DNA of 62,935 nt from Gammaproteobacteria bacterium (GTDB lineage: Bacteria; Pseudomonadota; Gammaproteobacteria; Acidiferrobacterales; UBA6901), in contig JACREH010000026.1 of assembly GCA_016218345.1 (NCBI GenBank), positions 1 to 62,935 on the forward strand, in the 5' to 3' direction. Position numbers and translations under genes: made by a program. A model generated the notes under the pieces. That model did no database searches. It was not told where the DNA came from and saw only the letters and a list, made by a program, of their open reading frames with translations. How positions within the stretch are numbered: the stretch's first letter is position 1; every line of letters starts with the position of its first letter. Of this stretch, positions 26,473 to 43,449 are shown one piece after another.

Positions 26473-26489
26473 AAATGGCTCCCCGGGAC
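26473..26489. repeat. Distal att direct repeat (copy of the tRNA-Asn 3' end)
   Basis: Identical to 43371-43387. It contains the reverse complement of the last 14 nt of the tRNA, including CCA. Confidence 0.85.
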
Positions 26490-27385: not shown

Positions 27386-27658
27386 TCAGTGCAGCCGACG
27401 ACGTTGCAAGATCATTGCCCATGCTGTGCGCTCGGCTTCGTCGCGACTCAGCCCACCGTCAAACTCTATGATCGCGGCCCGTTCCTCGAAGGCTTCGCGG
27501 TCAATCGGTGTAGGCCCACTAGCCGCAGAAATTTGGCGCAAAGGTGCCGCCGGTGTAGCTACAAAAGGCACAAAAGGGGCTTTTGTTACTTTTGTAGCCC
27601 CGCCCCTGGGCGCATCCTGCTGGGAAATTTTCCGCTTGAGGCGGTCTAGGTAGCTCAT
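27386..27658 (-). CDS. Hypothetical island protein
   Basis: 90 aa, with an ATGA overlap with the primase gene stop. Confidence 0.5.
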   Translation of the reverse strand: MSYLDRLKRKISQQDAPRGGATKVTKAPFVPFVATPAAPLRQISAASGPTPIDREAFEERAAIIEFDGGLSRDEAERTAWAMILQRRRLH

Positions 27659-29736
27659 GCAGCCCTCGCTTTCGGATTGATCCAGTAAAGCGCCTTCGGT
27701 CTGCCGCCAGTCTCTTGCCGTTCTTCGCGCAGATAATCCAGCTCGCCGAGCAACCTAACCGCCTGGCGTGTTTCCTCGGGGTTCGACAGGAAAGCCCAAT
27801 GCTTGAGATAAACATCACGCGGCCCGAAAGGGTCAGGCACTTCACCACGCCGGATGCGGGCAAGCAACGCCCGCGCGCTCTCGGCTTCGGCCTGGATTAC
27901 GCTGGCGTATGCCCGTTGCGCATGGCTTTCGAGATACTCGGCCCAGGCCAGCGCCTTGAGCAGCGCCGTCTCGCCAATAGCGCCGCCGGCATGATCAGCC
28001 AGGTGAATCAGCAGGGCAAGCGCCGGCACGAGCTTTCGATATTTTGCCAAGTGCGACTCGAAGGCCGCATGATCATTGCCGCTGCGGATTCGGTGCTCGA
28101 AGCCCGCCCGCCATTCGGAAAATAGCTCTTGCGCCGCCTCATCGAAGCGCAGATACGGAATGACGCCATCCTCGACCGTCGCGCCAATTGCCATGGGGTC
28201 AAACGTGTCGAGCCGCTCGAAGGTCTGGTGCGCGGTCGCTTTCGCTTCGGTATCCGGCCAGCGGTCAACATCGCGCCACTCGCCCGCAATGTCCGGCCAT
28301 ACCAGCAATTGAAAGCGCGACAGCAGGCCATCACCCCCCGCGCCAGCCACGGCTTGCCGCAGATAGGTTCCGATAACGGCAGGCTGGATGCTGCCAAGCA
28401 ACGAAAGGCAGCAGGCATCAATCCGCAGATTCAACCCGCGCCCGATACGGTCGAAGGTATAGCCCTCGGTGCCACTCCATGCGGACAGGAAAAATCCCCG
28501 CGCCCCTTCGTTGCCTTCCCTGTCCAGTGACTTGAGCAGGCCGACCAGCTCATCCCGATAGGCCAGCGTGCCGTTAGGGTTGAATCGCAAAATCTCGCCG
28601 AGCGCCTCGACCGAGCAATCATTGACGACATAGCGCCGGGCCTGCGGCTCATCGTCGGTAAATTCATCGGCAAGTGCATCCGACCCGACCGCCTTCCCTT
28701 TCTTGAGTGCCTTAACAATGTTCGACCGCTCCGCCTCCCGCTTGAGTTTGAATAGCTCGTTCGCGCGCCGCCATTCGCTAACTTCGACATCGAAGTTTTC
28801 CAGCGCCGCCACTTCGAGCTTCCGCAGGGGCCGCATGGACTCGCGCAACGCGGGCGACTTCATCACGCCTGGCCGGCCAATGATCGCGCCCCACAGGTTA
28901 GGCACTTCGAGCCAGTCATCGCGACGCTTCGGCCGAATGCCGATTTTTCGCCCGACGACGGCCGACAACGAGATCATCGCGCCGACCGCCGGGAAATCCG
29001 GCGGGCACTGCACGCGCTCGGCGATGTCCTGAATCCACAGCCGCAATGAATCGGGCAGCAGATCAAAATCGAATGCCTTGACCGGCGGCAGTGCATCGGG
29101 CAGCGGCATCGGGACGGGCCACGTCTCTTTCTGATCGGCGTGGGTAGTCAGTTTGGGTAGCGCCTCTATATCGTCCTTGACCGCCCCAGGATGCACAGCC
29201 AGCCATTCCATCACATCCTCACCCTTGCCGAGCCCGAGCCTGTCCACGTCCAGGCACTCGATGCGGCACCCCAAGCTGAGGAGGATGTCGGTGACTTCGC
29301 CTGCGTAACTCTTGCCGGGGTCGTCATTGTCCGGCCAGATCACTACGTTACGGCCGCGCAACGGTTCCCAGTCGGCTTTATCCGCGCCCGTTGCGCCGCC
29401 GCTGGTCGTTGTTACCAGGCCGAGCTTGTTGAGTGCATCGGCCTTTTGCTCACCTTCGACTATCCAGACAATGGCGTCGGGATCGCGGGCAATGTAGTGC
29501 AGGGCATATAGTGGTTTGCCGTTCGGGTATTTCGGCTCGGCCAGATCGAAGTCTCCGCCGTTCAGCTTCATGGGCCGAATCCACTTATCCCCCGTGTCAG
29601 GGTGTTTCGCCCGGATGCGCCAATGCAGCGGGTTCCCGTTCACGTCGGTATAGGCGTGCAGTGCTTCGGGTTGGTAGCCATCACGGATTGCGGTGGCCGC
29701 CAATCGTCGTGCGGCCTGTTGAGGAGTTTCGTTCAT
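27655..29736 (-). CDS. Toprim-domain primase fused to a DUF3987-like helicase/ATPase domain
   Basis: Toprim signature IVWIVEGEQKADAL...VVIWPDNDDPGKSYA, then a large C-terminal domain (IGRPGVMKSPAL looks like a P-loop). Start at MNETPQQ with a GGAGG SD. Confidence 0.8.
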   Translation of the reverse strand: MNETPQQAARRLAATAIRDGYQPEALHAYTDVNGNPLHWRIRAKHPDTGDKWIRPMKLNGGDFDLAEPKYPNGKPLYALHYIARDPDAIVWIVEGEQKADALNKLGLVTTTSGGATGADKADWEPLRGRNVVIWPDNDDPGKSYAGEVTDILLSLGCRIECLDVDRLGLGKGEDVMEWLAVHPGAVKDDIEALPKLTTHADQKETWPVPMPLPDALPPVKAFDFDLLPDSLRLWIQDIAERVQCPPDFPAVGAMISLSAVVGRKIGIRPKRRDDWLEVPNLWGAIIGRPGVMKSPALRESMRPLRKLEVAALENFDVEVSEWRRANELFKLKREAERSNIVKALKKGKAVGSDALADEFTDDEPQARRYVVNDCSVEALGEILRFNPNGTLAYRDELVGLLKSLDREGNEGARGFFLSAWSGTEGYTFDRIGRGLNLRIDACCLSLLGSIQPAVIGTYLRQAVAGAGGDGLLSRFQLLVWPDIAGEWRDVDRWPDTEAKATAHQTFERLDTFDPMAIGATVEDGVIPYLRFDEAAQELFSEWRAGFEHRIRSGNDHAAFESHLAKYRKLVPALALLIHLADHAGGAIGETALLKALAWAEYLESHAQRAYASVIQAEAESARALLARIRRGEVPDPFGPRDVYLKHWAFLSNPEETRQAVRLLGELDYLREERQETGGRPKALYWINPKARAA

Positions 29737-30062
29737 CGTTTGGCCTCCACTGTGCCCAGTGCCTTCGCGGCGTCGAAAAAGCGCAGCCCATACCGTTGCA
29801 TGTGGAAAGCCAACACGTCGCCGCCATGGGCGCCGCACGCCATACAACGGAAACCGCCGCTGTCGAGACGCACGCGCAGGCTGGGCTTGGTGTCGTTGTG
29901 GAAAGGGCAGACAGCGGATTTCCATTCACCGCCGCCGGTCAGCTTCAATCCCTGTCCGTGGTAATACTCGCCGGGGTTTGGTAAACGGTCGCGCTTGAAG
30001 GCGAAGGCAGGCCGGTTCAGTCCCCGCGTTGGGTTCGCATGTCGCATCGTTCGCCCCCTCAC
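29733..30062 (-). CDS. CHC2 zinc-finger (DnaG-type) protein
   Basis: CPFHNDTKPSLRV..FRCMACGAHGD. ATGA overlap with the primase. Start is GTG 30062 (overlapping the alpA stop) or ATG 30047. Confidence 0.7.
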   Translation of the reverse strand: MRGRTMRHANPTRGLNRPAFAFKRDRLPNPGEYYHGQGLKLTGGGEWKSAVCPFHNDTKPSLRVRLDSGGFRCMACGAHGGDVLAFHMQRYGLRFFDAAKALGTVEAKR

Positions 30063-30301
30063 ACCGCAGCCTTGCTGGCCGCTTCCGGATTCGCCACCAG
30101 GGCGCGAATATCTTCAATGCGCCATGCGGTTATTCTTTGTCCCAGGGATCTGACTGGTTGCGGATAGCGCCCGGATTTGACTCCGGCCCACCATGTGGAC
30201 CGGCTTACTGGGATGATTGCAGGAATAGGCGGATCCGCTCTGCGGTCGCCAATGATTTGCGGAAGACGAAGAAAACCTGTTTCTGGAAGTATTTGGGGCA
30301 T
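30059..30301 (-). CDS. alpA: AlpA-family transcriptional regulator / excisionase-like protein
   Basis: FLRLPQIIG...IPVSRSTWWAGVKSGRYPQPV is the Phage_AlpA helix-turn-helix pattern. Start is ATG 30301 or 30316. Confidence 0.8.
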   Translation of the reverse strand: MPQILPETGFLRLPQIIGDRRADPPIPAIIPVSRSTWWAGVKSGRYPQPVRSLGQRITAWRIEDIRALVANPEAASKAAV

Positions 30302-30525
30302 GAACGCCTCTCCCATTTTCGGGTTAGACGTCCAGCCAGCCGGGCTGCCAATTTAAAACGCGCTAGTCACGCGTTGCCCCTGGTCTTGAACATGTAAGCG
30401 TTATCGGTGTCGCTGTCGGTGTTCCGGACGGCAAACCCCCGGAGTCGAACCAGTGCTAATAGCCGCGCTACACCGCAACATTTACAGCATCATGAAATAA
30501 AAATCAAGAACATACGCCATGTGAT

Positions 30526-30539
30526 GGATGTGCACATCC
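30526..30539. promoter_or_regulatory. Perfect 14-bp palindrome GGATGTGCACATCC (operator-like)
   Basis: Lies in the divergent alpA/cargo intergenic region, next to an AT-rich stretch (CATGAAATAAAAATCAAGAACATA). Confidence 0.4.
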
Positions 30540-30708
30540 CTGGATCTCGTCACGCGCCAGGCTGCCAAGGGAAGCAGCTTGTCGCCTCGGCGGGCTAGGT
30601 TTCGCATTCTGGACACAATGTCCGTCGCTGTATACGTACATAGTGTTTGGGCATCCGCATTGTACGCTGCGAGGTAGCGCTGAAATAGGCGCAGCGCTAT
30701 AGTGATAG

Positions 30709-30748
30709 CGTCTGAGAGTGTCTGATACCGTCTGAGAGCGTCTGAGGA
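30709..30748. repeat. Four tandem 10-bp repeats CGTCTGAGAG / TGTCTGATAC / CGTCTGAGAG / CGTCTGAGGA
   Basis: Read directly from the sequence. Helical-period spacing; the array ends 9 nt before ATG 30757. Confidence 0.7.
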
Positions 30749-30756
30749 CTCTGCTT

Positions 30757-30948
30757 ATGGGCAAGGTGATACCCTTTCAAAGACCGACCAAGCAGTCGGA
30801 CAACACGAACCCGCCAGGGCCACAGAAGGTCTACGTGCGGTTCGGGGCGCCCGGCCTCATAGAGTGGCTAGAGTCCATCCCTCCACATCTCCGGAAAGGG
30901 GGCACGCTCAAGATCACTCTCCCGGAGAAAAGCCCACTCCCGAAGTAA
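30757..30948 (+). CDS. Hypothetical protein (63 aa)
   Basis: ATG preceded by GAGGA. No recognisable motif. Confidence 0.4.
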   Translation: MGKVIPFQRPTKQSDNTNPPGPQKVYVRFGAPGLIEWLESIPPHLRKGGTLKITLPEKSPLPK

Positions 30949-30989
30949 CGCCTCAAGATAGAGGGCAGGATTTCGCGGAGGGGCCAAAA

Positions 30990-31358
30990 ATGACCGCATC
31001 GCCCCAACAGATCAAGCTGGCCAACCAACACCCGCTCAACAAGGCGGCCAGGACGTTCTTGCCGAAGGACTGGCAGGCGAACGAAATGACGGAACTCCAC
31101 GTCCTGAGTCTGATGCGCTGGGGGCTGGAGAATGGCCTGGAGATAAACCAGCGGGGTAGGCCGACCCAGGAAGAAGTGGAAAGCAGGATCGAAATTCTGG
31201 CAAGGCAAAAGCCTCAAGCGACGATGCGGTTCCTGATAGACCCGGAAAAGACCGGGGACGTGGTGCTGGACGAGGCGGACCTTCTGGAACAGGAGTCGCC
31301 ACTGGACGCGGCGGGGTTTCTACTGGAGTCGCTGGTAACAAGCATGGAAGCGGCGTAA
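30990..31358 (+). CDS. Hypothetical protein (122 aa, acidic C-terminus)
   Basis: ATG preceded by GGAGGGG. No recognisable motif. Confidence 0.5.
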   Translation: MTASPQQIKLANQHPLNKAARTFLPKDWQANEMTELHVLSLMRWGLENGLEINQRGRPTQEEVESRIEILARQKPQATMRFLIDPEKTGDVVLDEADLLEQESPLDAAGFLLESLVTSMEAA

Positions 31359-31504
31359 CGCTTGAGCAGGCTGAGAAGCAGAAGGTCGAAGGCGAATTCA
31401 CCGAGACCGTGCTCAAGGAATACCGGCTGCAATGCTTCGCGGTCCAGGGACGGCTGAACCAGGTTGAGCTTCTCAATAATCGTATTTATTTGTGAGGACA
31501 GTCG

Positions 31505-32110
31505 TTGGTGTCAGCGGCAACACCACATATCGCTGTCAGATACCTCAGCCTCTTTAGCTGGGGCAGGCCGCCGTTGCCATGGGGTTTGGCCGACAAGATC
31601 AACATAGCGTTGCGGGAGCACGACATAGCGAGTGTTGGGGTGACAGGTTCCTTGTGCCCGTCGGTCCTAACAGCCCTGGCCTACGGCTCGCCTGGGCGAA
31701 AGGTAAACGCATTCAACTGCAAGTCTCGCTGGGGTGACGGGGTTGGCTGGAATTGCGTTCTGGACGACTCGCCAGGCATGGAGCTGGATGCTCCCCGAGG
31801 CGAGCCATACCTCCCCGTCAGCAACGTCCATTTTTGGGACGGGGCAACACCGTTTTTTTATTCCCAGGCGCTATTTGTAGACTTACCTTTTAAGCACAGC
31901 CATGTGCGGCTCAAAATCGAACACCTGAATGGCTTTGACCATCGCTTGCTGCTGCTGGGGTTTCTTGACGAACACGATGGGCCTGTGGATGTGCTGGACT
32001 GGGCCATGTCGAAAGGCTACGAGGTTTCAGAGCATGCCGAGAACATAACGAATGTTGAAAAATCAATGTCCCTGGAGTATCGATTGAAAATATTACGGAA
32101 ACCTATGTGA
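31505..32110 (+). CDS. Hypothetical protein (201 aa)
   Basis: TTG/GTG start 8 nt after GAGGA. Lower-GC codon usage. No recognisable motif. Confidence 0.5.
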   Translation: MVSAATPHIAVRYLSLFSWGRPPLPWGLADKINIALREHDIASVGVTGSLCPSVLTALAYGSPGRKVNAFNCKSRWGDGVGWNCVLDDSPGMELDAPRGEPYLPVSNVHFWDGATPFFYSQALFVDLPFKHSHVRLKIEHLNGFDHRLLLLGFLDEHDGPVDVLDWAMSKGYEVSEHAENITNVEKSMSLEYRLKILRKPM

Positions 32111-32224
32111 CTAATAAATAGAGCCCGGCGATCTGGTCGGTGTGCGACATGGTTCAGGCAGGTGTTTCGATGCAGGATATGACGTTCTCGAATAAGGGTT
32201 ACGTCACTTTTTCTAGATGAAGTG

Positions 32225-32896
32225 ATGAAAGCGCAATTGATGGAAAAGCAGGTTAAATCGAAACAACGGGTCGCCGATCACGGCGAGGTATTGACCAACA
32301 AACGAGAGGTCAATGCCATGCTCGATTTGGTGAAACAGGAAACAGAGCGGATTGAATCCCGTTTTCTTGAGCCTGCATGCGGGACAGGGAATTTCCTTAC
32401 AGAAATTCTTGAACGCAAATTGCGCATCGTTGAAGGCCGGTACGGCAAGAGCCAACTGGAATACGAGAGGTATGCCGTGCTCGCGGTGTCATCTAGCTAC
32501 GGTATAGATATCCTATTTGATAACGTCCAAGAGTGTCGTAAGCGGCTTTTCGATATCTTCAATCAGAAGTACACAGGCTTGTTCAACGGACGAGCTAAGG
32601 ATGAATGTCGTAACGCCATCCGATTTATTCTGGAGCGAAATATCATTTGGGGAGATGCGCTCTCGCTCAAGACGGTGGGCGAGAACCCGAAGTCGATTGT
32701 CTTTTCTGAATGGTCGCCAGTGAACGGAAGCATGCTAAAACGGCGGGATTTCACGTTCCATGGTTTGCTCGCGCATGAGGCAATCAAAGAACTACCGCTC
32801 TTCTCCGATCTCGGTGAGGATGTCTTTATCCCAACACCGGAGAAGGAATACCCCCTAACTCACTTTCTTGAGGTGGCGAAAGTTGACGACTGGTAA
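32225..32896 (+). CDS. Truncated N6-adenine methyltransferase-like protein lacking catalytic motif IV
   Basis: [29 protein letters not shown] (motif I), YGIDIL, and IIWGDAL. No (D/N/S)PP(Y/F/W) tetrapeptide occurs anywhere in the protein. Confidence 0.65.
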
Positions 32897-34406
32897 TTAC
32901 AATCCGGACGTGTTGACTTGCCTGGCAAACCTCAGCAGTGACGAGGTGTTCACGCCGCCGCAAATGGCGAATCAGATGCTCGACTTGCTTTCGATAGAGC
33001 TCTGGAGCAATAAGAACGCTACGTTTCTGGATCCTGGCTGCAAATCAGGCGTGTTTCTGCGCGAGATCGCCAAGCGCCTCGATAAAGGGCTGGAAGCGCA
33101 GATTCCACACCGCCAGAAACGACTGAACCACATTTTCAAAAATCAGCTCTACGGTCTTGCCACAACCGACCTGACCGCCCTATTGTCACGCCGGTCCGCA
33201 TACTGCTCCAAGACGGCCAATGGGAAGTATTCAGTCTGCGAAGCCTTCGATAACCCACAAGGCAATATCCGTTTCGGGCGCGTCGAGCACACATGGCAGA
33301 ATGGCCGATGCGCGTACTGCGGAGCCAATGAGGAGAACTATGAGCGAAGCAGCGAACTGGAAAGCCATGCCTACACGTTCATTCACACTGACAAGCCAGA
33401 GGAGATTTTCGACATGAAATTCGATGTCGTCATCAGCAACCCGCCGTATCAGTTGAGCGATGCTGGTTATGGCGCCAGCGCGTCACCGATCTACCACAAG
33501 TTCGTCGAGAGCGCGATCAGCCTCAACCCACGTTACATCGTGATGATTACGCCATCACGCTGGTTCGCCGGCGGCAAGGGATTGGACGAATTCCGTGAAC
33601 GGATGCTCAGCGAATCGCGTCTACGGAACCTCGTTGACTATCCGAAGCTTTACGACGGATTCCCAGGCGTGAAGATACGAGGTGGTGTCTCATATTTTCT
33701 GTGGGATCGCGACTACGACGGTCCATGCACCGTACAGACGATGTGGGACGGCGCGCCGCTCGGTTCACCGATGGAGCGAAGTTTGAACACCTACGACGTT
33801 CTCGTCCGCCGGAACGAGGCTGTCTCAATTCTCGACAAGGTCCGTGCCTATCGCGTCGGAGGAAAGGCGGAGCGAACTCTGGATGCGTGCGTGTCCAGTC
33901 AGAAGCCGTTCGGGCTGCGAACATTCGTTCACGGTGCTGAGTCCAGGAAGGGACTAAAGCGTCCGGTTAAGCTCTATGGTTCACAGCGCGTCTCGTGGGT
34001 GGAACGAACAGCGATCGAAAGGAACGCGTCATGGATAGATGAATGGAAGGTCCTGATGACGCGTGTCCAGGGCACGAGTGCAGCGGTGGAGACCATGTTC
34101 TTGAGTCGGCCCATCATTGCTGGGCCAGGCGAGGCTTGCACAGAATCATATGTGGTCGCGGGCCGATTCACGAACGAAAAAACCGCAAAGCTCTACGCGC
34201 AGTATTTACGAACCCGGTTTGTCCGGTTCTTGGTGTCACTGCGCAAGGCGACGCAGGACGCGGCCAAGGATGTCTACGCGTTCGTCCCAGACGTTCCGCT
34301 CAACCTGGCGTGGACCGACGAGAAACTCTATGAACGCTACGGGCTAACAAAGGACGAGATCGCTCTTATTGAGTCTATTGTGCGCCCGATGGATGCAGAT
34401 GAATGA
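32883..34406 (+). CDS. Gamma-class N6-adenine DNA methyltransferase (Eco57I/N6_Mtase-like)
   Basis: [28 protein letters not shown] (motif I), [10 protein letters not shown] (motif IV), and a C-terminal region of about 250 aa that could be a TRD. The start is uncertain (TTG 32868 / TTG 32883 / GTG 32910). Confidence 0.85.
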
Positions 34407-36925
34407 GTAAAGACTTCTTCCCCCCGCGCCCTGACTCGCGGCCTGCCATCTATGCCTACGAGGATACGAATTCGCAGTATGCGGGCCTACTTAAAGTCGG
34501 CTATACGACCGTGGATGTGCAGAGCCGTGTTGCCCAGCAGTACCCGACTTTACGACCCGGCAAGCCGCCCTATAGGATCATCCTGGAAGAGCCCTCCATG
34601 CGGAATGACGGGACGGTATTCACCGACCACGATGTCCACCGGATGCTCCGACTCAATGGCGTTAAGAATCCAGAAGGCGAGTGGTTTCTTTGCACGGTCG
34701 CCCAGGTCAAGGCGGCGATCATTTCTGTTCGGACCGGACAACTGAACGAAGAGAACCGGACACTCGATTTCAGAATGCGGCCGGAGCAGGAAGCGGCGGT
34801 CGAGAAGACGGCGGCGTACTTCACAAGTTGGCGCAAGGAAAAGGGCAACCGGAACAAGCCGCCGCACTTCCTGTGGAATGCGAAGATGCGTTTCGGCAAG
34901 ACATTTTCCACCTACCAGTTGGCGAAAAAAATGGGCTGGCGCAAAGTGCTGGTGCTCACCTTCAAGCCCGCAGTGCAGAGTGCCTGGGAAGACGACCTGA
35001 AATCTCATGTTGATTTCGAGGGTTGGCAGTTCATCTCTCCGGGCGGTCTACCCTTTGGAAAGGTAAACAAAAGGAAACCGTTCGTCTGTTTCGGCTCATT
35101 TCAAGATTATCTAGGAAGGAACCGCAGCACGGGTGGGATCAAAACAAAAAACGAGTGGGTTCATGCAACCCAATGGGACTGTATCATCCTCGACGAATAC
35201 CACTATGGCGCCTGGCGCGAAAACGCAAAAGAACTTTTTGATGAAGAAGTTGAGAAGGCGGCTGAGCGAACTGACGAGGAAGAGCGCTTTGATGTCATTG
35301 AAGACATCATACCTATCACAACTGACGCCTATCTATATCTTTCCGGCACACCATTCCGAGCCATCGCATCCGGCGAGTTTATCGAGGAGCAGATATTCAG
35401 CTGGACTTACTCAGATGAGCAGCGGGCGAAAAGGGACTGGAAGGGCATTAACAATCCCTACGCCGCGTTGCCAAGGATGGTGCTCCTGACCTACCAACTC
35501 CCGGACGCGATCCGGGAAATCGCCATGCAAGGTGAGTTCAACGAGTTCGATCTGAACGTCTTCTTCTCTGCCGAGGGCATCGGCGACAAGGCGAAGTTCA
35601 AGTATGAGGACGAGGTTCAGAAGTGGCTGGACCTGATTCGCGGCGCGTTCCTGCCGACCAGTGTTGACAATCTGAAACTCGGGGCGCAGAAGCCGCCGAT
35701 GCCGTTTTCGGACGTGCGGCTCCTGAACGTGCTATCACACACATTCTGGTTCCTCCCCAGCGTGGCCTCCTGTCACGCCATGCGCAACTTGCTAGCAAAG
35801 AAACAGAACCGGTTCTACCACGACTACAAGGTGATCGTGGCGGCGGGTAGCGCAGCCGGAATGGGCGTCGCGGTTTTGCCGCCAGTGCAGGAGGCGATGG
35901 ACGACCCTCTCAAAACAAAGACCATCACGCTGTCTTGCGGCAAGTTGACCACGGGCGTGACTGTGAAACCGTGGTCGGGCATTCTCATGCTTCGCAATTC
36001 ATCCAGCCCTGAGACGTATTTTCAAGCAGCCTTCCGAGTGCAGTCACCTTGGACGGTCCGCAACCCGGACGGAGCATCCCCGAACGAAGAACAGATCATC
36101 AAGGAAGAGTGCTACGTCTTTGACTTTGCGCCGGATCGGGCATTGCGGCAAATCGCCGACTACAGTTGCCGTTTAAACGTAGATGAGTCGAACCCGGAAA
36201 AGAAGGTTGCAGAGTTCATCAGCTTCCTGCCGGTCCTCGCCTACGATGGCAGTTCGATGAAGCAAATTGACGCCGCCGGCATTCTCGACATGGCGATGAG
36301 CGGAACTACTGCAACGTTGCTGGCGCGGCGCTGGGAAAGTGCGTTGCTCGTGAATGTGGACAACGACACCTTGCGTCGCCTGATGAACAACAAGAAGGCG
36401 ATGGATGCCCTCATGAGCATTGAGGGTTTCCGCAATCTCAATCAGGAGATCAAGACCATCATCAACAAGTCGGAAGCCGTGAAAAAAGCCCGCAAGGAAG
36501 CCAACGACGAGGAGTTGTCCACGAAGGAAAAGAAGAAACTGACCGAAGAGGAGAAGGAGTATAAGGGCCTTCGGAAGCAGATTCAGGAGAAGCTCATCAA
36601 ATTCGCTACGCGGGTGCCCATTTTCATGTACCTGACCGACTACCGCGAGCGGACGCTGAAGGACGTGATTACGCAGCTGGAACCGGGGCTCTTCAAGAAG
36701 GTCACCGGTCTGACCGTGAAAGACTTCGAATTGCTCGTGAGCCTTGGGGTCTTCAACAGCGCATTGATGAACGATGCAGTCTACAAATTCAAGCGGTATG
36801 AGGATGCCAGCTTGAGCTATACAGGAATCAACAAACATGAAGGCGAGGATGTCGGCCTTTATGATACAGTGCTGAGCGCGGGTGACTATCAATCCACTTT
36901 TGTGAATGTCACTGCTAAACCATGA
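34403..36925 (+). CDS. T5orf172/GIY-YIG-like nuclease domain fused to an SNF2/ResIII-type helicase
   Basis: N-terminus: [25 protein letters not shown]. Helicase motifs: RFGKTF (I), ILDEYHY (II) and YLSGTPFRA (III). It ends in a K/E-rich coiled-coil tail. ATGA overlap with the MTase. Confidence 0.85.
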
Positions 36926-37002: not shown

Positions 37003-38037
37003 ATGGCCATTTGGTTAATTCGCGCCGGCTCCCACGGCGAATACGAACATAAGTTCATCCAGGAAGCCCGAGTCTATGTGACTTGGGAGGGTCTCGATGT
37101 GAATCTCGCCAACCTCAAACAACGCGCCGATTTGACGGCAGCGATGACCGAGCGTTCACCGGACAAGAAGCCAAAAGCAATTATGAATTGGGTTAGTCAG
37201 GTGTGGCCATTTGCTCAGGAGATGAAGAAAGGCGACCTGGTTGTGTTGCCGCTCAAGTCGCAGCCCGCAATCCAGGTTGGCGAGATAACGGGCGATTACC
37301 ACTTCGAGTCAGCCGGGCCGGACCCATACTTTCACTGGCGGCCGGTGAAATGGATTGCCGAGGCCGTGCCGCGCGCCAACTTCGGTAGAGACTTGCTATA
37401 TACTTTCGGCGCGTTTATGACGATCTGTCGCGTGCAGCGTAACAACGCGGAACAACGTATCGCCGCCATGCGGGCGAACAGTTGGAAACCAGAAACGGTC
37501 GTGGCCGCTACTAAGGCAACAACGCCGGCCAGCGATGAAGCGGCAGAAGACACCGACCTCGAAGCACTCGCTCTCGACCAGATTGCCCAACTTATAGCCG
37601 CGCGTTTCAAGGGTCACGGTCTAACGCGACTGGTGGAAGCCATTCTTAAGGCGCAGGGTTACACCACCTACCGCAGTGCAGAAGGCGCAGACGGTGGCGC
37701 AGATATCCTTGCGGGTGCCGGCCCACTCGGCTTCGAAAAGCCGCGACTCTGTGTCGAAGTGAAATCGGAAAGCGGTCCCATCGACAGGCCGACAGTGGAT
37801 AAACTGCTGGGTGCGGTCGCCAAGTTCGGCGCAGATGAGGGCTTGTTTGTTTCATGGGGTGGCTTCAAGAGCAACGTACAAAAGGAACTCGCGGCCAGTT
37901 TTTTCCGGGTGCGACTGTGGACACAGAAAGAACTTCTGGAACAACTCTTTGCTAATTACGATCAGTTAGATGAGGACTTGAAGGCTGAGCTGCCCTTGAA
38001 GCGAATCTGGATGGTGGCGGCGCAGGAAGAAGAGTAG
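37003..38037 (+). CDS. Mrr-family (type IV-like) restriction endonuclease with N-terminal reader-like domain
   Basis: C-terminal Mrr_cat pattern GADGGADILAG...RLCVEVKS...GLFVSWGGF. The N-terminal 150 aa (MAIWLIRAGSHGEYEHKF...) is typical of this enzyme family. Confidence 0.75.
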   Translation: MAIWLIRAGSHGEYEHKFIQEARVYVTWEGLDVNLANLKQRADLTAAMTERSPDKKPKAIMNWVSQVWPFAQEMKKGDLVVLPLKSQPAIQVGEITGDYHFESAGPDPYFHWRPVKWIAEAVPRANFGRDLLYTFGAFMTICRVQRNNAEQRIAAMRANSWKPETVVAATKATTPASDEAAEDTDLEALALDQIAQLIAARFKGHGLTRLVEAILKAQGYTTYRSAEGADGGADILAGAGPLGFEKPRLCVEVKSESGPIDRPTVDKLLGAVAKFGADEGLFVSWGGFKSNVQKELAASFFRVRLWTQKELLEQLFANYDQLDEDLKAELPLKRIWMVAAQEEE

Positions 38038-38153: not shown

Positions 38154-38489
38154 TCAGGGCAACCACGTTGCTGGAATGTTAGTAGTACCTATTTTGAGCT
38201 TTGAATCCTCATAGCTAATCGTCAGAGGATCCTGTGTAGGCGGTACACGTCTTAGACCGCCCATAACGGGTAGCGCAATAATGACTTTGCCCTGCCAGGA
38301 ACCACTGGCCGGGAGAGTATGATCTACTCCTATCGCTGAAATGGTGAGGTTGGTTCCATCATATTCAAATTCGACTTCCTCTCTGGCGATGTTGCGTTTG
38401 CCTAGTTTGGCGCCATATCGCATCGCTTTGAGGCATCCTACGAAATCAGCCAGAGCAACAACGAGTTTAAAATTGTTTGTTGGAATCAT
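38154..38489 (-). CDS. Hypothetical protein (111 aa)
   Basis: Low-GC ORF with beta-rich sequence and no recognisable motif. Confidence 0.45.
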   Translation of the reverse strand: MIPTNNFKLVVALADFVGCLKAMRYGAKLGKRNIAREEVEFEYDGTNLTISAIGVDHTLPASGSWQGKVIIALPVMGGLRRVPPTQDPLTISYEDSKLKIGTTNIPATWLP

Positions 38490-38629
38490 AATTACCGGCT
38501 TCCTAATCTAATCAGATCCTGAATTTCTACCGCGCCACGATCCCCGTTCAAATTGCACATGCAGCACATCGTTTCTGCCGGGACTTTAAAAACTGGGGCT
38601 GGCTGCGCGATGCGAGGCTATAGGAGACA

Positions 38630-38878
38630 TTACGAAATGAGTTTTGGGAACGACTCAAAGACAATTTCTTTCGTTTCGCTCATGTACTTTCTTACGGTAT
38701 CGATGTCTCCCGCCGATACCCCGCCTGTAACTTGTATGACATCGTCCAAGGAGTAGAACTCATAATAGGTGCCGTCATCAAAGACGAGGAACAGTTGCGA
38801 CTTTGGTGATTTGTCGCCGGTCTTGATTACGATTCCCTTGATCGTTTTTCCCAGAATTTCTTGCGCACCGTCTTTCAT
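38630..38878 (-). CDS. Hypothetical protein (82 aa)
   Basis: Low-GC ORF with no recognisable motif. Confidence 0.45.
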   Translation of the reverse strand: MKDGAQEILGKTIKGIVIKTGDKSPKSQLFLVFDDGTYYEFYSLDDVIQVTGGVSAGDIDTVRKYMSETKEIVFESFPKLIS

Positions 38879-38916
38879 TTCCGTCCTCCAGCAGGTTCCA
38901 CAAGGTAAGGGCTATT

Positions 38917-39381
38917 TTACTTGGCAGAGTATTGTTGGGAGTACCGGGAAATGATGTTTTTACGCCACGCAATTACGAAGCCTGTCGCTTCCTTTTCGAT
39001 GAGATTCTCGAACGCCTGATCGTCCGCCGACTGGTTGTAATCAATATCGTATTCGTCGCATTTATCCACAAAAAATTGAACCAATTCTTCTGAACATGAC
39101 TTGAGCGATGCTGCGGAACCGAACACAGCCTCAAAGTACCAGTCATCGCTCAGCTCTTCACCATTCTCAAAGCGAATATCCCAATCCCAGAGGTCGGTGA
39201 TCATGAAGTCGAGGGGTATGCATTCGTTGAGCCGATCCTTCAACTGCACCAACTGTTCTTCGGACAGTTGAGCGGGAGGGCAGGGTGTCTCTATTGTGTC
39301 TGGATCTATCGAGAAATAGGACAGAATCAGGTAACCGACGAGCTTGTTCTGATTTGCAGCGAGAAATTCTTCGTAAGTCAT
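38917..39381 (-). CDS. Hypothetical strongly acidic protein (154 aa)
   Basis: By my count about 31 Asp+Glu against about 11 Lys+Arg. No recognisable motif. Confidence 0.55.
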   Translation of the reverse strand: MTYEEFLAANQNKLVGYLILSYFSIDPDTIETPCPPAQLSEEQLVQLKDRLNECIPLDFMITDLWDWDIRFENGEELSDDWYFEAVFGSAASLKSCSEELVQFFVDKCDEYDIDYNQSADDQAFENLIEKEATGFVIAWRKNIISRYSQQYSAK

Positions 39382-39855: not shown

Positions 39856-41706
39856 ATGAAAATTGTATCACTGCAATTGTCCAATATTCTGAGCTTCAGA
39901 TACTCCGATAACATTGGTTGTGCCGAGAAGATCAGCTTTGATGACGATCTCAATATCATCATTGGGGAAAACGGCTCAGGTAAATCGACGGCTCTAGAGG
40001 TCATAAATTTCCTGTTCAGGCGCGTTCTCTATAAACAGTACAACCTCAACCAAGACCTATACACTCAGCGGAACAGCATTAACGCTGATCAACGAAAACA
40101 GATTCTCCTGCCCGCAAACAACCTTTCGTATGATGGTTTTAGACTTGATCCTAATTGGAATACAGAAGACCGGCCCCAAACAATCCGTATTGTGGTTAAG
40201 CTGGACGAGATCGATAAAAAGAACATTCAGTACCTGCAAGATAAGCGAGTCACTTTGGCACCGTGGGTAGGGCGTTACACCACACGGGGTGAGACTGCTG
40301 CGTCAGACTATGGCGAGATGTACACTCTCGATATTATCCTAAATCGAAATGAGAAAACGTTCTCCGTCCAACCTCTGGACTGCGCGCAAGATTATGGGTA
40401 TGAGTACCTCACGGACTACAATTTTTACAAAGATACCATCGCTCTCTACAATTTAGAAAATTCGGTGAATCCGATCGATACGCTCTACGAGTCATTCACT
40501 CTCATCAGCAGTTACCGAAACTACCATGCTTTCAATGTCTCCATAAGCCTGCGAGACCACCACCCTGCCGTACAGATTCAGCAAATTCGGAGTGCTGACT
40601 ATACAAGGAGTCTAAACGCCAACGATAACTCGGAGCCAGCGATTTTCGCGCTTGTTCGTCTCCGAGTTGCCGAGAAGCACTTTGGCTTAATCTCACAAAA
40701 AATGGACGAGGCGGAATGCGAGGCCGCTGCTAATGCACTGCCGTTCATAGTGGAGATCAACAAACGTCTTCGCATCGTCAATCTGAAGTGCAAAATAAAG
40801 CTTCTTGACCTTCGCACTTGGCGCTACAGTTTTGAATTTCTAGACCTGCGAAGAAACAAGACCATTGCGGACATCAATAGCCTCAGTGCTGGGCAGAAGG
40901 CTATTACTCATCTTGTCTTCGAGGCCTACGGAAGAGGCGACCTAAAAGGTGGACTCGTGATCATTGATGAGCCAGAAATTCATCTGCACCATCAATTCCA
41001 GCATGAGTACCTACAGGTAATACGAGAGCTGAACAAACATCAGAGTTGTCAGTATATTCTGGTTACGCATTCCGAAGCACTCATAAACTCAGCAACCATC
41101 AGTAGTGTACGGCGGTTCAGTCTCAACACCGAGGGATACACAGAGATACGATTCCCCAAACTTACAGCGGAACAGAAGGTCTTGATTCGTATTCTCGACA
41201 ATACGAGATCAACCTACGCGTTCTTTGCCAAGAAAGTTGTTTTGGTCGAAGGGGACACCGACAGATACTTCTTTAAGGCAGTGGTTCAGTCGCTGTATCA
41301 GGAGCTGGACCAAGAGATCGCGATACTTCACGTCGCCGGTAAGAACGAGCTTGCTCAATGGACTACTCTTTTTGAGAGCTTTGGGCTGATTGTCTATCGG
41401 ATAGCTGACTTGGATTATGCCTACGATCTCTTCTACCCCCTCGAACCGCGGACGAGCCTAAAGACGCCTGCCGCCGTAACGGCTTTCAAGATAGCACATC
41501 CTGATTGCGAGTCTAGAATAACTACGGAGTATGCAAATAAAACCTTTATTCTCAGGAACGGTGATCTTGAGCATTATCTCGATATTGGCAAGGATCTGGC
41601 GGAAGTCATAACGTTATGTACCAATCAGTTGGCACAGTACCTACAAGATGAAAGCAATCAGAAAAGCGTAGAAGTTAGAGAGATTGTTCGGCAGATCACT
41701 GTCTAG
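39856..41706 (+). CDS. OLD-family / PARIS-like ABC ATPase fused to a Toprim nuclease domain
   Basis: Walker A GENGSGKST, signature LSAGQK, Walker B LVIIDEPEIHLH, ILVTHS, then a Toprim-like VVLVEGDTDRYFF ... IADLDYA. Confidence 0.8.
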   Translation: MKIVSLQLSNILSFRYSDNIGCAEKISFDDDLNIIIGENGSGKSTALEVINFLFRRVLYKQYNLNQDLYTQRNSINADQRKQILLPANNLSYDGFRLDPNWNTEDRPQTIRIVVKLDEIDKKNIQYLQDKRVTLAPWVGRYTTRGETAASDYGEMYTLDIILNRNEKTFSVQPLDCAQDYGYEYLTDYNFYKDTIALYNLENSVNPIDTLYESFTLISSYRNYHAFNVSISLRDHHPAVQIQQIRSADYTRSLNANDNSEPAIFALVRLRVAEKHFGLISQKMDEAECEAAANALPFIVEINKRLRIVNLKCKIKLLDLRTWRYSFEFLDLRRNKTIADINSLSAGQKAITHLVFEAYGRGDLKGGLVIIDEPEIHLHHQFQHEYLQVIRELNKHQSCQYILVTHSEALINSATISSVRRFSLNTEGYTEIRFPKLTAEQKVLIRILDNTRSTYAFFAKKVVLVEGDTDRYFFKAVVQSLYQELDQEIAILHVAGKNELAQWTTLFESFGLIVYRIADLDYAYDLFYPLEPRTSLKTPAAVTAFKIAHPDCESRITTEYANKTFILRNGDLEHYLDIGKDLAEVITLCTNQLAQYLQDESNQKSVEVREIVRQITV

Positions 41707-43210: not shown

Positions 43211-43273
43211 TTGGGGGCACCTGGCTCTAGTGAAAGAGAATGTGCCCCCAAATGTGCCCCCAAAGTGGGGGCA
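43208..43273. repeat. Cluster of GTGCCCCCAAATG-type motifs (one inverted, two direct, one inverted partial)
   Basis: CATTTGGGGGCAC 43208-43220 overlaps the int start codon. GTGCCCCCAAATG is at 43242-43254, and GTGCCCCCAAAG followed by TGGGGGCA at 43254-43273. Confidence 0.6.
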
Positions 43274-43373
43274 TGTCAATGAATGAGGCTGGACGGTAAG
43301 AGACAAGCAGGCAGTGTAAATGCCTTAAAAACAGATGCTTTTGGACGTTGCTGGATTGTACTGGATAAGCAAA

Positions 43374-43449
<76 letters not shown>

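What the first reader, a model, noticed from the sequence alone, without database searches (positions are those of the whole stretch)
30757..32896. Same-strand block of three orphan ORFs plus the half-methyltransferase at the backbone/cargo junction
Directly after the divergent alpA control region lie ORFs of 63, 122 and 201 aa. Each has a plausible ribosome-binding site (GAGGA-9 nt-ATG, GGAGGGG-8 nt-ATG, GAGGA-8 nt-TTG), and none has a motif I can recognise. The motif-IV-less MTase-like gene follows 111 bp later.

The compositional switch from island-backbone GC to lower GC falls near 31.47 kb, just before the 201-aa gene. That gene is therefore the first cargo gene, and it may be functionally linked to the downstream MTase/helicase operon rather than to the backbone.

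The 201-aa protein is rich in Trp, His and Phe (FWDGATPFFYSQ, FKHSHVRLKIEHLNGFDHRLLLLGF). The 122-aa protein has an acidic tail. In P4-like elements, variable anti-phage modules sit in variable hotspots between backbone genes. These orphans could be a small undescribed module, or accessory and regulatory parts of the neighbouring system.
Basis: inference. Interest (0 to 1): 0.65.

Follow-up and report, generated by a model that had tools for sequence, protein, structure and literature searches.

The report
Four unrelated cargo genes, one nested elsewhere
The four neighbouring genes are real but do not form one system; they are separately acquired passengers of a small mobile island, and relatives of the 122-aa gene are hidden in a second reading frame inside giant anti-restriction genes of other mobile elements.

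Summary
The ORFs exist as described, with only minor corrections to spacers and to the GC switch. They lie in a 16.9-kb tRNA-Asn island. The "module" idea fails: the genes never co-occur elsewhere.

- **orf224:** the constant first gene of a widespread three-gene operon: a 218-aa MTase-like protein, an Eco57I-type MTase and a T5orf172+SF2 helicase. All 12 loci examined have this order. Motifs X and I-III are kept, but NPPY is replaced by an invariant E-W.
- **orf201:** a very rare family, with 18 clusters among 1.84 billion representatives. Its predicted fold is a class-I methyltransferase. It is independent cargo, next to a sirtuin or HDAC gene in 4-5 of 9 contexts, and never next to the MTase/helicase operon.
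- **orf122:** a confidently predicted all-helical protein with no fold match. In 10 viral contigs its relatives sit in the +1 frame inside giant polyvalent-protein genes, exactly at the methylase-helicase junction. They have their own conserved SD and ATG, and the host frame is kept open by selection. The window copy is a free-standing derivative.
- **orf63:** an ORFan, coding-like but without any relative.

No function was tested.

The parts
26473..26489 (.). Left copy of the 17-bp direct repeat AAATGGCTCCCCGGGAC (putative attL) that bounds the island.
   Evidence: Exact repeat of the 3' end of tRNA-Asn.
30059..30316 (-). AlpA-like gene. It is the first gene of the leftward backbone operon (alpA, Zn-finger, DUF3987/Toprim primase).
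   Evidence: Weak Pfam Phage_AlpA hit. Primase DUF3987 E = 4e-86. The Zn-finger is DnaG-like.
30703..30746 (.). About 4.4 tandem copies of a 10-bp unit (TGAGAGCGTC), running into the SD of orf63. Possible operator. Function not tested.
   Evidence: Tandem Repeats Finder score 60-72 and direct-repeat families. The motif is not enriched elsewhere in the window.
30757..30948 (+). orf63: a basic (pI 10.2) 63-aa ORFan. It may be a lineage-specific small gene. It is the weakest of the four.
   Evidence: GC3 is 0.75 and GAGGA lies 8 nt upstream. There is no family hit and no relative in viral contigs or in any fetched locus. The exact sequence is not among public gene calls.
30990..31358 (+). orf122: an acidic all-helical protein. 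It is a free-standing copy of a gene family that elsewhere is nested in the +1 frame of polyvalent-protein genes.
   Evidence: Homologues. AF2 pLDDT 88.3, pTM 0.84. No fold match in PDB or BFVD. Nested relatives.
31505..32110 (+). orf201: a rare, divergent protein with a predicted class-I methyltransferase fold. Independent cargo gene.
   Evidence: 16 homologues and 18 clusters in an exhaustive profile search. AF2 pLDDT 76.6, pTM 0.77. Foldseek gives 208 matches at E <= 0.001; all 50 listed are SAM-dependent methyltransferases. Contexts.
32222..32896 (+). orf224 (probably 218 aa from the ATG at 32240): a conserved MTase-like protein without NPPY. First gene of the three-gene operon.
   Evidence: More than 8000 homologue clusters; the 120 best listed are 216-252 aa. 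Invariant motifs are shown. Operon synteny is 12/12.
32883..34406 (+). Eco57I-type N6-adenine MTase with a variable C-terminal half (target recognition). Second gene of the operon. The start is probably the TTG at 32883, overlapping the end of orf224.
   Evidence: Pfam Eco57I E = 6e-36. The N-terminal half is 68-71% identical to relatives and the C-terminal half 36-39%, in the two loci where the match splits.
34403..36925 (+). T5orf172 (GIY-YIG-like) + SF2 helicase protein. Third gene of the operon.
   Evidence: Pfam T5orf172 and ResIII. PADLOC REase_MTase_IIG profile. 62-89% identity across loci.
43371..43387 (.). Right copy of the 17-bp direct repeat (putative attR), in the 3' end of tRNA-Asn and next to the integrase gene (42008-43306, minus strand).

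Best explanation
The block is not one system. It is the left edge of the cargo of a 16.9-kb island integrated at tRNA-Asn. The island backbone comprises the integrase, AlpA, a Zn-finger protein and a DUF3987/Toprim primase. The block consists of four evolutionarily independent units that were acquired separately.

**1. orf224 (shown).** It is the constant first gene of a widely transferred three-gene operon: a 218-aa MTase-like protein, an Eco57I-type MTase and a T5orf172+SF2 helicase.
- Inferred mechanism: a restriction-modification-like system of the Type III / Type ISP style.
- The 500-aa MTase, with its variable recognition half, marks host DNA.
- The helicase-nuclease protein translocates on and cuts unmarked DNA.
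- The 218-aa protein keeps the SAM-binding motifs but has E-W in place of NPPY. I infer that it is a non-catalytic or atypical MTase-like partner subunit.

**2. orf201.**
- Shown: it is an autonomous cargo gene of a very rare family.
- Predicted: it has a class-I methyltransferase fold.
- Inferred: it is a small modifying enzyme or nucleotide binder that works on its own. In other elements it works together with a neighbouring sirtuin or HDAC-type deacylase, which is absent here.

**3. orf122.**
- Shown: its relatives are nested, out of frame, at the methylase-helicase junction of DarB-like polyvalent-protein genes. They have their own SD and start codon.
- Shown: the window copy is free-standing.
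- Inferred: the nested state is ancestral.
- Inferred: like its host genes, it serves the incoming element, as a counter-defence factor or as a partner of methylase-helicase enzymes. It would be expressed early from the rightward promoter region next to alpA.

**4. orf63.** It is a lineage-specific ORFan directly downstream of an operator-like 10-bp repeat array. It is either a small early or regulatory protein or not a gene at all.
For: **Island limits and backbone:**

**No co-occurrence**
- tblastn of all island proteins against 13 related primase islands finds the primase in all 13. It finds the Zn-finger, g90, g236, the integrase and AlpA only in some. It never finds orf63, orf122 or orf201.
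- The 12 operon loci lack them.
- The orf201 and orf122 contexts share no neighbours with the window.
- DNA identity to L012 (87%) covers only 30988-31355.

**orf224**
- More than 8000 clusters. The 120 best are 79-93% identical and 216-252 aa, and come from several phyla.
- Synteny is 12/12, with overlapping stop and start codons.
- Invariant motifs are HGEV.T, FLEPACGxGNFL, YG(I/V)(D/E), NIxWGDAL and I-x-F-(S/A)-E-W.
- Similarity to the neighbouring MTase is limited to motifs X and I.

**orf201**
- The family is small with conserved motifs.
- The fold is supported.
- It is solitary between housekeeping genes in L034.
- It lies next to a homologous 280-aa sirtuin in L005, the P0006 contig and L007, and SIR2 fragments lie about 1.7 kb upstream in L010.
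- In L001 a MetK C-terminal fragment, an HDAC gene and the orf201 homologue have overlapping stops and starts.

**orf122**
- In 10 IMG/VR contigs the small ORF is in the +1 frame of an open frame of 2738 to more than 6000 codons.
- The two host ORFs that were scanned carry AAA_34 and Helicase_C_4, plus LPD38 or InPase. An NPPF methylase motif lies just upstream of the small ORF.
- In the overlap, the codon-position GC pattern follows the small frame.
- Synonymous resampling gives P(host frame open) = 0.014, 0.009, 0.41, <0.0003 and <0.0003 in five loci.
- GGAGG lies 7-10 nt before the ATG or GTG and is conserved.
- Substitutions peak at small-frame position 3.
- The NJ tree nests the free-standing copies among the nested ones.
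- L013 keeps a 68-aa remnant of the methylase end.
Against: - No experiment and no expression data are available. Co-transcription of the four genes in this island cannot be excluded. They share a strand, gaps are short (41, 146 and 111 bp), and no terminator-like site was found in the gaps between them.
- Context samples are small: 9 distinct contexts for orf201 and about 15 for orf122.
- The methyltransferase assignment of orf201 rests on a predicted structure only. TM is about 0.5 and two segments have pLDDT below 50.
- orf201 has no sequence-profile link to any MTase.
- The D-L-P-F motif and the acidic beta2 position are not kept in distant members.
- No structure was predicted for orf224, so its partner-subunit role is an inference from motifs.
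- For orf122 the proposed role is inferred only from where its relatives sit. No fold match supports it.
- The nested architecture was seen only in uncultured IMG/VR contigs, and not in GenBank phages or PLSDB plasmids.
Confidence: 0.75

Rival explanations
1. One reading: the three orphans form a small undescribed anti-phage module. Alternatively, orf201 with or without the others is an accessory or regulatory part of the neighbouring MTase/helicase system.
For: - All four genes are on the same strand with short gaps, and no terminator-like site was found in the gaps between them.
- orf201 has the same GC as the MTase and helicase genes (0.543 versus 0.555 and 0.543).
- orf201 has a methyltransferase-like fold and lies next to MTase genes.
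- The same arrangement is seen in a second sample, L052. This is the same element, not an independent case.
Against: - 0 of 12 operon loci carry orf201, orf122 or orf63.
- 0 of 8 other orf201 contexts carry the operon.
- orf201 has no sequence relation to either neighbouring MTase.
- Each gene has a separate set of relatives in unrelated elements.
Confidence: 0.07
2. orf63 and orf122 are lineage-specific backbone genes of this island, that is, early or regulatory genes of the rightward operon opposite alpA. On this view they are not cargo.
For: - They share the backbone GC (0.59).
- They lie directly after the divergent control region and its operator-like 10-bp repeats.
- A sub-threshold int-alpA RNA match lies in the same intergenic region.
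- In several other elements, orf122 homologues also sit near the edge between backbone and cargo.
Against: - Both genes are absent from all 13 related primase islands.
- orf122 relatives occur in elements with three different replication modules and inside polyvalent genes. This is not what a regulator tied to one backbone would show.
- orf63 has no relative anywhere.
Confidence: 0.15
3. orf201 is a stranded half of a two-gene sirtuin/HDAC-linked system. Without its deacylase partner it would be inactive in this island.
For: - A homologous 280-aa sirtuin lies next to orf201 in three contexts, in two different gene orders.
- Sirtuin fragments occur in a fourth context.
- An HDAC takes the sirtuin's place in a fifth.
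- The window has no SIR2 or HDAC homologue.
Against: - The window gene is intact and well conserved (92% to P0001).
- Homologues are also found without any deacylase in L004, L031/L032 and L034. In L034 the gene is a solitary insert between an AsmA-family gene and an aminotransferase gene.
- The sirtuins do not match any PADLOC defence SIR2 family.
Confidence: 0.2
4. The nested orf122-like ORFs are not genes. The long host frame would be open by chance in GC-rich DNA. Alternatively, the host gene would really be two genes flanking a small gene.
For: - High GC3 in the small frame lowers the stop frequency in the -1 frame. With the small ORF's own codon usage, the probability that the frame is open is 0.006-0.31 per locus.
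- In L039 the probability is 0.41 even with the codon usage of the flanking gene.
Against: - The same frame offset and an open host frame occur in 10 contigs with 27-44% identity to the window protein.
- P is below 0.0003 in the two low-GC loci, where GC3 rises locally from about 0.5 to 0.66-0.78.
- The third frame has 3-14 stops.
- SD and start codon are conserved at the homologous position.
- The full-length protein alignment has invariant residues.
- Methylase and helicase domains lie in one frame on the two sides.
Confidence: 0.1

Closest known systems
Nested out-of-frame phage genes such as lambda Rz/Rz1 (from my own knowledge, not tested here)
   Same: A small gene lies entirely inside a larger gene in the +1 frame. 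It has its own ribosome-binding site and start codon, and both frames are kept open.
   Different: - Here the host gene is a giant polyvalent protein of 2738 to more than 6000 codons, and the overlap covers a low-complexity linker between its methylase and helicase domains.
- The small protein is a soluble, acidic helical protein of unknown function, not a lipoprotein spanin.
- The window's own copy is free-standing.
Methylase-helicase dyad of polyvalent proteins (P1 DarB type; Iyer et al. 2017, PMC5512222)
   Same: The genes that host the orf122 relatives have an NPPF adenine-methylase domain followed by a Strawberry-notch-type SWI2/SNF2 ATPase (AAA_34 and Helicase_C_4), plus LPD and InPase domains. 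That paper proposes counter-restriction on entry for the dyad.
   Different: A word search of that paper finds no occurrence of 'overlapping' or 'frameshift'. The window island has no polyvalent gene, only the small gene.
dnmA-yeeB-yeeC cluster and Type III / Type ISP restriction-modification (PMC9973331)
   Same: An N6-adenine MTase is combined with an SF2 helicase and a T5orf172 domain in a conserved, horizontally spread operon found in defence islands.
   Different: - Here T5orf172 and the helicase are fused in one 840-aa protein.
- The MTase is Eco57I-type and about 500 aa, not MmeI-like.
- An extra, highly conserved 218-aa MTase-like protein without NPPY precedes them.
- Activity was not tested.
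Class-I SAM-dependent methyltransferases (COMT, CbiT 3e05, METTL5 6h2u, Trm5a 5wt1)
   Same: The predicted orf201 structure has the beta-alpha Rossmann-like core with a terminal beta-hairpin. It matches more than 200 such structures at E <= 0.001, and a conserved G-S loop follows beta1.
   Different: - There is no sequence-profile similarity to any MTase.
- TM is only about 0.5.
- The acidic residue after beta2 is not conserved.
- D-L-P-F after beta4 varies in distant members.
- The substrate is unknown.
Variable defence hotspots of P4-like satellites (Rousset et al. 2022; from my own knowledge)
   Same: A small tRNA-integrated island has an integrase, AlpA and a primase, together with a block of defence genes. 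These are the RM-like operon, an Mrr-like PDC-S02 protein and an OLD-family ATPase-TOPRIM nuclease.
   Different: No Psu, Sid or Delta-type capsid-redirecting genes were recognised. The primase is DUF3987/Toprim. Relatives are in Betaproteobacteria-like metagenome bins, so I do not claim membership of the P4 family.

Membership tests
One functional module made of orf63 + orf122 + orf201 (+ orf224) | The genes recur together in independent genomes. | tested here: not met
   No pair of orf63, orf122 and orf201 recurs in any of about 35 relevant loci. The only exception is L052, which is the same element from another sample.
Three-gene operon: 218-aa MTase-like, Eco57I MTase, T5orf172+helicase | orf224 homologue lies immediately upstream of the MTase and helicase, on the same strand. 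| tested here: met
   12 of 12 loci, from an Acidiferrobacteraceae MAG, an Anaerolineales MAG, one metagenome contig and 9 IMG/VR contigs.
Three-gene operon: 218-aa MTase-like, Eco57I MTase, T5orf172+helicase | orf201 is an accessory gene of the operon. | tested here: not met
   It is present in 0 of 12 operon loci, and 0 of 8 other orf201 contexts have the operon.
Backbone of the AlpA / DUF3987-primase island family | Present in related islands whatever the cargo. | tested here: not met
   orf63, orf122 and orf201 are absent from 13 islands whose primase is 43-82% identical.
Gamma-class N6-adenine DNA methyltransferase (Eco57I / MmeI / HsdM-like), for orf224 | Motif X and SAM-binding motif I. 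| tested here: met
   HGEV(L/F)T and FLEPACGxGNFL are invariant and align to HsdM and MmeI.
Gamma-class N6-adenine DNA methyltransferase (Eco57I / MmeI / HsdM-like), for orf224 | Catalytic motif IV (D/N/S)PP(Y/F). | tested here: not met
   The position is occupied by I-x-F-(S/A)-E-W-(S/N), with E and W invariant. The Pfam MmeI_Mtase score of 22.5 is below the 27-bit cut-off.
Gamma-class N6-adenine DNA methyltransferase (Eco57I / MmeI / HsdM-like), for orf224 | Target-recognition domain after the catalytic core. | tested here: not met
   The protein ends about 65 residues after the motif IV position. The 120 best homologues listed are 216-252 aa.
Class-I SAM-dependent methyltransferase, for orf201 | Seven-stranded Rossmann-like MTase fold. 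| tested here: met
   AF2 pLDDT 76.6, pTM 0.77. Foldseek versus PDB gives 208 matches at E <= 0.001; all 50 listed are methyltransferases, with TM about 0.5. This is a prediction only.
Class-I SAM-dependent methyltransferase, for orf201 | Sequence-profile membership and SAM-binding residues (Gly-rich loop, acidic residue after beta2). | tested here: inconclusive
   There is no Pfam, NCBIfam or PDB sequence hit. The G-S loop is conserved, but no conserved acidic residue follows beta2. D126 is kept, whereas L-P-F varies.
Class-I SAM-dependent methyltransferase, for orf201 | SAM binding and methyl transfer. | not testable with these tools
   This needs purified protein.
Sirtuin/HDAC-linked gene pair, for orf201 | A deacylase gene lies next to the orf201 homologue. 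| tested here: not met
   It is met in 4-5 of 9 distinct contexts elsewhere. The window has no SIR2 or HDAC homologue.
Gene nested in polyvalent-protein genes, for orf122 | The ORF lies out of frame inside a methylase-helicase polyvalent gene. | tested here: not met
   This is true of relatives in 10 IMG/VR contigs. The window copy is free-standing: the host-type frame has a stop at 31157 and no methylase remnant is detectable.
DNA-mimic anti-restriction proteins (ArdA / Ocr type), for orf122 | Acidic surface and a known mimic fold. | tested here: inconclusive
   The protein is acidic (pI 4.7, net charge -8). There is no fold match in PDB or BFVD (best E = 1.9) and no Pfam hit.
P4-like phage satellite | Integrase + AlpA + primase, plus capsid-redirecting genes (Psu, Sid, Delta). 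| tested here: inconclusive
   The integrase (Arm-DNA-bind_3, Phage_int_M), a weak AlpA hit and the primase are present. The remaining island ORFs match no Psu/Sid/Delta-type family in the libraries each was scanned against. No dedicated satellite classifier was run.

The most novel reading that the evidence does not exclude
The orf122 family would be a previously undescribed gene that originated, or is maintained, by overprinting on the linker between the adenine-methylase and SWI2/SNF2-helicase domains of DarB-like polyvalent proteins of phages and conjugative elements. It would be translated from its own conserved SD and ATG, which are encoded within the host protein's L-L-E-G-I-R-N motif. 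It would have escaped at least three times to become a free-standing gene in small integrative islands such as this one. On this reading it is a new counter-defence factor, or a partner of methylase-helicase enzymes, with a new all-helical fold.
Probability: 0.6. Interest if true: 0.75.

Novelty: new variant of a known kind. Interest (0 to 1): 0.6.

Why it matters
**Annotation.** The work separates what belongs to the defence operon (orf224) from what does not (orf63, orf122, orf201). It also corrects the public gene call for orf201, which holds only its last 110 residues.

**Restriction-modification biology.**
- A 218-aa MTase-like protein with an invariant E-W in place of NPPY is the most conserved part of a very widespread operon.
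- It has no tested role.
- It may be a catalytically silent partner, as in heteromeric methyltransferases.

**Mobile-element biology.**
- A conserved gene hidden in a second frame of giant polyvalent genes would be missed by every standard gene caller.
- If it is real, the polyvalent "Swiss-army" proteins carry at least one extra product.
- Small islands carry that product alone.
- This gives a simple, testable handle on what the methylase-helicase dyad needs or fights.

**orf201.** This rare methyltransferase-fold protein recurs next to sirtuin and HDAC deacylase genes. It is a candidate for a new modification-based conflict system.

Tried and rejected
**Profile libraries.** Pfam, PHROGs, NCBIfam and PADLOC gave nothing for orf63, orf122 or orf201.

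**Searches for orf201**
- A PDB sequence search with the orf201 profile gave only chance hits.
- hhalign of the orf201 family against the two neighbouring MTases gave no relation.
- I rejected the idea that orf201 supplies the motif IV missing from orf224. The two never co-occur.
- The orf201 profile found no viral-contig relatives.
- The C-terminal extension of the 428-aa family member P0162 has no Pfam domain.
- The sirtuin, HDAC and other neighbours of orf201 homologues match no PADLOC family.

**Searches for orf122**
- Fold searches against PDB and BFVD gave no match.
- tblastn of orf122 and of two nested relatives against GenBank phages and PLSDB plasmids gave no match.

**Searches for orf63**
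- No relative in viral contigs.
- I tested whether orf63, or the DNA upstream of orf122, is a remnant of the methylase end of a polyvalent gene, as it is in L013. tblastn and a profile built from ten upstream segments found nothing in the window, L011, L012 or L040.

**Other checks**
- The 164-aa GTG version of orf122 is rejected. Its N-terminal extension has low GC3 (0.48) and no conserved counterpart among the homologues.
- The sigma-70 promoter scan found none in 30200-33000, and the terminator-like hits were at chance level.
- Literature searches found no description of the nested gene. They also found no paper describing the 218-aa/Eco57I/T5orf172-helicase operon as such.


Full report
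**Observation**

- Homologue alignments confirm the orf122 ATG and the orf201 start region.
- They favour the ATG at 32240 for orf224, giving 218 aa.
- SD-like motifs are present, with spacers of 8, 6 and 6 nt.
- The 111-bp gap, the quoted peptides and the acidic tail (residues 85-122, net charge -9) are correct.
- Per-gene GC is 0.594, 0.593, 0.543 and 0.489. In 500-bp windows the large drop lies at about 31.75-32.0 kb.
- No sequence library recognises orf63, orf122 or orf201.

**Setting**

A 17-bp direct repeat (AAATGGCTCCCCGGGAC) lies at 26473-26489 and at 43371-43387. The second copy is in the 3' end of tRNA-Asn. Together they delimit a 16.9-kb island.
- Backbone, leftward: alpA (30059-30316), a DnaG-type Zn-finger ORF, a DUF3987/Toprim primase, and two small genes.
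- At the right end lies a P4-type integrase.
- Between them lie the four ORFs, then the Eco57I-type MTase, a T5orf172+SF2 helicase, an Mrr-like PDC-S02 protein, three unknown minus-strand ORFs and an OLD-family ATPase-TOPRIM.
- About 4.4 copies of a 10-bp tandem repeat at 30703-30746 run into the orf63 SD.

**Are the genes linked?**

I fetched three sets of related loci.
- *Thirteen islands with a related primase (43-82% identity).* Some share the Zn-finger, g90, g236, the integrase or AlpA. None has orf63, orf122 or orf201.
- *Twelve loci with an orf224 homologue.* All have orf224, MTase and T5orf172/helicase in the same order, often with overlapping stop and start codons. None has the three orphans.
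- *Contexts of orf201 and orf122 homologues.* They share no neighbour with the window.
- DNA identity to the closest orf122 locus (87%) covers 30988-31355 only.
- L052 repeats the window arrangement, but it is the same element from another sample.

The block is therefore a mosaic of independently mobile units. It is neither a module nor backbone.

**orf224**

- More than 8000 clusters match. The 120 best are 79-93% identical, are 216-252 aa long and come from several phyla. Many are annotated as SAM-dependent DNA methyltransferase.
- Across relatives down to 56% identity, several motifs are invariant. They are motif X (HGEV.T), motif I (FLEPACGxGNFL), YG(I/V)(D/E) and NIxWGDAL. At the motif IV place, I-x-F-(S/A)-E-W is invariant instead of NPP(Y/F).
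- Similarity to the neighbouring MTase is limited to motifs X and I. That MTase is itself complete, with NPPY.
- Within the operon, orf224 and the helicase are highly conserved (up to 90% and 89%). The MTase C-terminal half is variable (36-39% in the two loci where the match splits). This is the usual signature of changing target specificity.
- Inference: the operon is a Type III / Type ISP-like restriction-modification system. The 218-aa protein would be a SAM-binding, probably non-catalytic, partner. Heteromeric methyltransferases with a silent paralogue are an analogy from my own knowledge.
- The nearest described analogue is dnmA-yeeB-yeeC.

**orf201**

- The word-indexed search found 16 homologues at 46-92% identity. 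An exhaustive profile search of 1.84 billion representatives found only 18 clusters.
- The AF2 model (pLDDT 76.6, pTM 0.77; residues 1-19 and 79-102 are poorly predicted) has an alternating beta-alpha core with a terminal hairpin. Foldseek returns 208 PDB matches at E <= 0.001. All 50 listed are SAM-dependent methyltransferases, among them COMT, CbiT, METTL5, Trm5a and Hen1 (TM about 0.5).
- In close relatives, G-x-T-G-S follows beta1 and D-L-P-F follows beta4. In distant members only G-S and the Asp persist. Catalysis is therefore not assured.
- Contexts elsewhere:
  - A homologous 280-aa sirtuin (57% identity between loci) lies next to the gene in L005, the P0006 contig and L007, in two different gene orders.
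  - Sirtuin fragments lie about 1.7 kb upstream in L010.
  - In L001 a MetK C-terminal fragment, an HDAC gene and the orf201 homologue overlap stop to start.
  - In L004, L031/L032 and L034 there is no deacylase. In L034 the gene is a solitary insert between an AsmA-family gene and an aminotransferase gene.
- L007 begins with a homologue of g90, the gene that follows the primase in the window, so it may belong to the same island family. There orf201 lies on the other side of the backbone.
- Conclusion: orf201 is an autonomous cargo gene. It has a recurrent but facultative link to protein-deacylase-type enzymes, and no link to the MTase/helicase operon.

**orf122**

- Sixteen homologues occur in integrative elements with three different replication modules.
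- The AF2 model is confident (pLDDT 88.3, pTM 0.84; eight helices). It has no match in PDB or BFVD.

*The unexpected result came from viral contigs.*
- In 10 distinct IMG/VR contigs the orf122-like ORF lies in the +1 frame inside an open frame of 2738 to more than 6000 codons.
- The two host ORFs that were scanned are polyvalent proteins with AAA_34 and Helicase_C_4, plus LPD38 or InPase.
- An NPPF adenine-methylase domain ends immediately before the small ORF's start. The small ORF therefore covers the junction of the methylase-helicase dyad.

*Evidence that both frames matter.*
- In the overlap the GC pattern follows the small frame (GC3 0.66-0.88). The host frame there reads as low-complexity G/A/P/D/S/R sequence. 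In the two low-GC loci, GC3 rises locally from about 0.5.
- Resampling synonymous codons with the flanking gene's usage leaves the host frame open with P = 0.014, 0.009, 0.41, <0.0003 and <0.0003. The third frame has 3-14 stops.
- A GGAGG lies 7-10 nt before the ATG or GTG. It is conserved and is encoded by the host motif L-L-E-G-I-R-N.
- Nested and free-standing proteins align end to end, with invariant residues.
- Among close nested pairs, substitutions peak at small-frame position 3.

*Direction of change.*
- L013/L014, a free-standing copy, retains 68 residues of the methylase end upstream.
- A rough NJ tree nests three free-standing lineages among the nested ones. The nested state is therefore probably ancestral.
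- The window copy has no remnant, and the host-type frame has one stop.

*Prior description.* A word search of the reference paper on polyvalent proteins finds no occurrence of 'overlapping' or 'frameshift'. It interprets the dyad as DarB-like counter-restriction. Other searches found no description either.

*Function.* By association I propose a counter-defence role, or a role as partner of methylase-helicase enzymes. This step is inferred, not shown.

**orf63**

- It has a coding-like GC3 (0.75) and an SD motif.
- It has no relative in any fetched locus or in viral contigs.
- It is not among the public gene calls.
- It is not a methylase remnant.
- It may be a small lineage-specific early or regulatory protein downstream of the repeat array, or it may be non-coding.

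**Verdict**

- The interest lies in three things:
  - the nested-gene family behind orf122;
  - the conserved NPPY-less subunit of a very common operon;
  - the rare methyltransferase-fold gene associated with sirtuin and HDAC genes.
- Limits:
  - nothing was tested experimentally;
  - context samples are small;
  - only two structures were predicted;
  - the nested architecture is known only from uncultured contigs.

Noticed in passing
L036 7971-8336; L038 7983-8348; L039 6125-6523; L041 7983-8420; L042 7899-8297; L053, L058, L059, L060 and L063 around 8935-9357: Relatives of orf122 are nested in the +1 frame of giant polyvalent-protein genes, at the methylase-helicase junction. They have a conserved SD and ATG, and the host frame is kept open by selection.
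   Followed up: yes
window 30703-30746: About 4.4 tandem copies of a 10-bp unit (TGAGAGCGTC; period 10 and 20) lie directly upstream of, and run into, the SD of orf63. They look like an operator or iteron array in the alpA/orf63 divergent region.
   Followed up: partly
window 30557-30599 (minus strand): Sub-threshold match to the Rfam int-alpA RNA motif (RF02996; 26.2 bits against a gathering score of 35.8; E = 0.088), upstream of alpA.
   Followed up: no
window 31505-32110: The public gene call holds only the C-terminal 110 residues of orf201 (P0171). Homologues support the full 201-aa TTG-initiated protein. orf63 is not called at all.
   Followed up: yes
L001 8554-10624: In a Burkholderiales bin, a MetK C-terminal fragment (196 aa, beside an IS transposase), a short HDAC-family gene and the orf201 homologue overlap stop to start. 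This hints at a link between SAM and deacylase for this family.
   Followed up: partly
L007 4105-7545; L019 1-1338; L039 11935-13020: L007 carries the gene run cpYpsA (SLOG), a 479-aa protein, the orf201 homologue and a sirtuin. The 479-aa protein is 55% identical to a gene in a related primase island (L019). It is weakly similar (24%) to part of a polyvalent protein.
   Followed up: no
window 32883-34406 compared with L028-L030 and L043-L051: Within the three-gene operon the MTase is the least conserved gene. Where the match splits, its N-terminal half is 68-71% identical and its C-terminal half 36-39%. The 218-aa protein and the helicase reach 89-90% identity to the closest locus (L028). This is consistent with shuffling of the target-recognition half.
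   Followed up: partly
window 37003-38037 and 39856-41706: Further island cargo. One is an Mrr-like nuclease matching the PADLOC candidate system PDC-S02 (E = 7e-155). The other is a solitary OLD-family ATPase-TOPRIM protein (GajA/Old-like). Three unannotated minus-strand ORFs (38154-39381) lie between them.
   Followed up: no
L012 1114-1478: The closest orf122 relative (91% identity) is split by a frameshift (two tblastn segments; called as a 97-aa protein, P0017). It is either a pseudogene or an assembly error.
   Followed up: no
window 29733-30062 and 27655-29925 (minus strand): The Zn-finger ORF and the long primase ORF overlap by about 190 nt. The same overlap is seen in the related island L019. 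The primase probably starts at an internal Met (MNETPQQ...) right after the Zn-finger stop.
   Followed up: no
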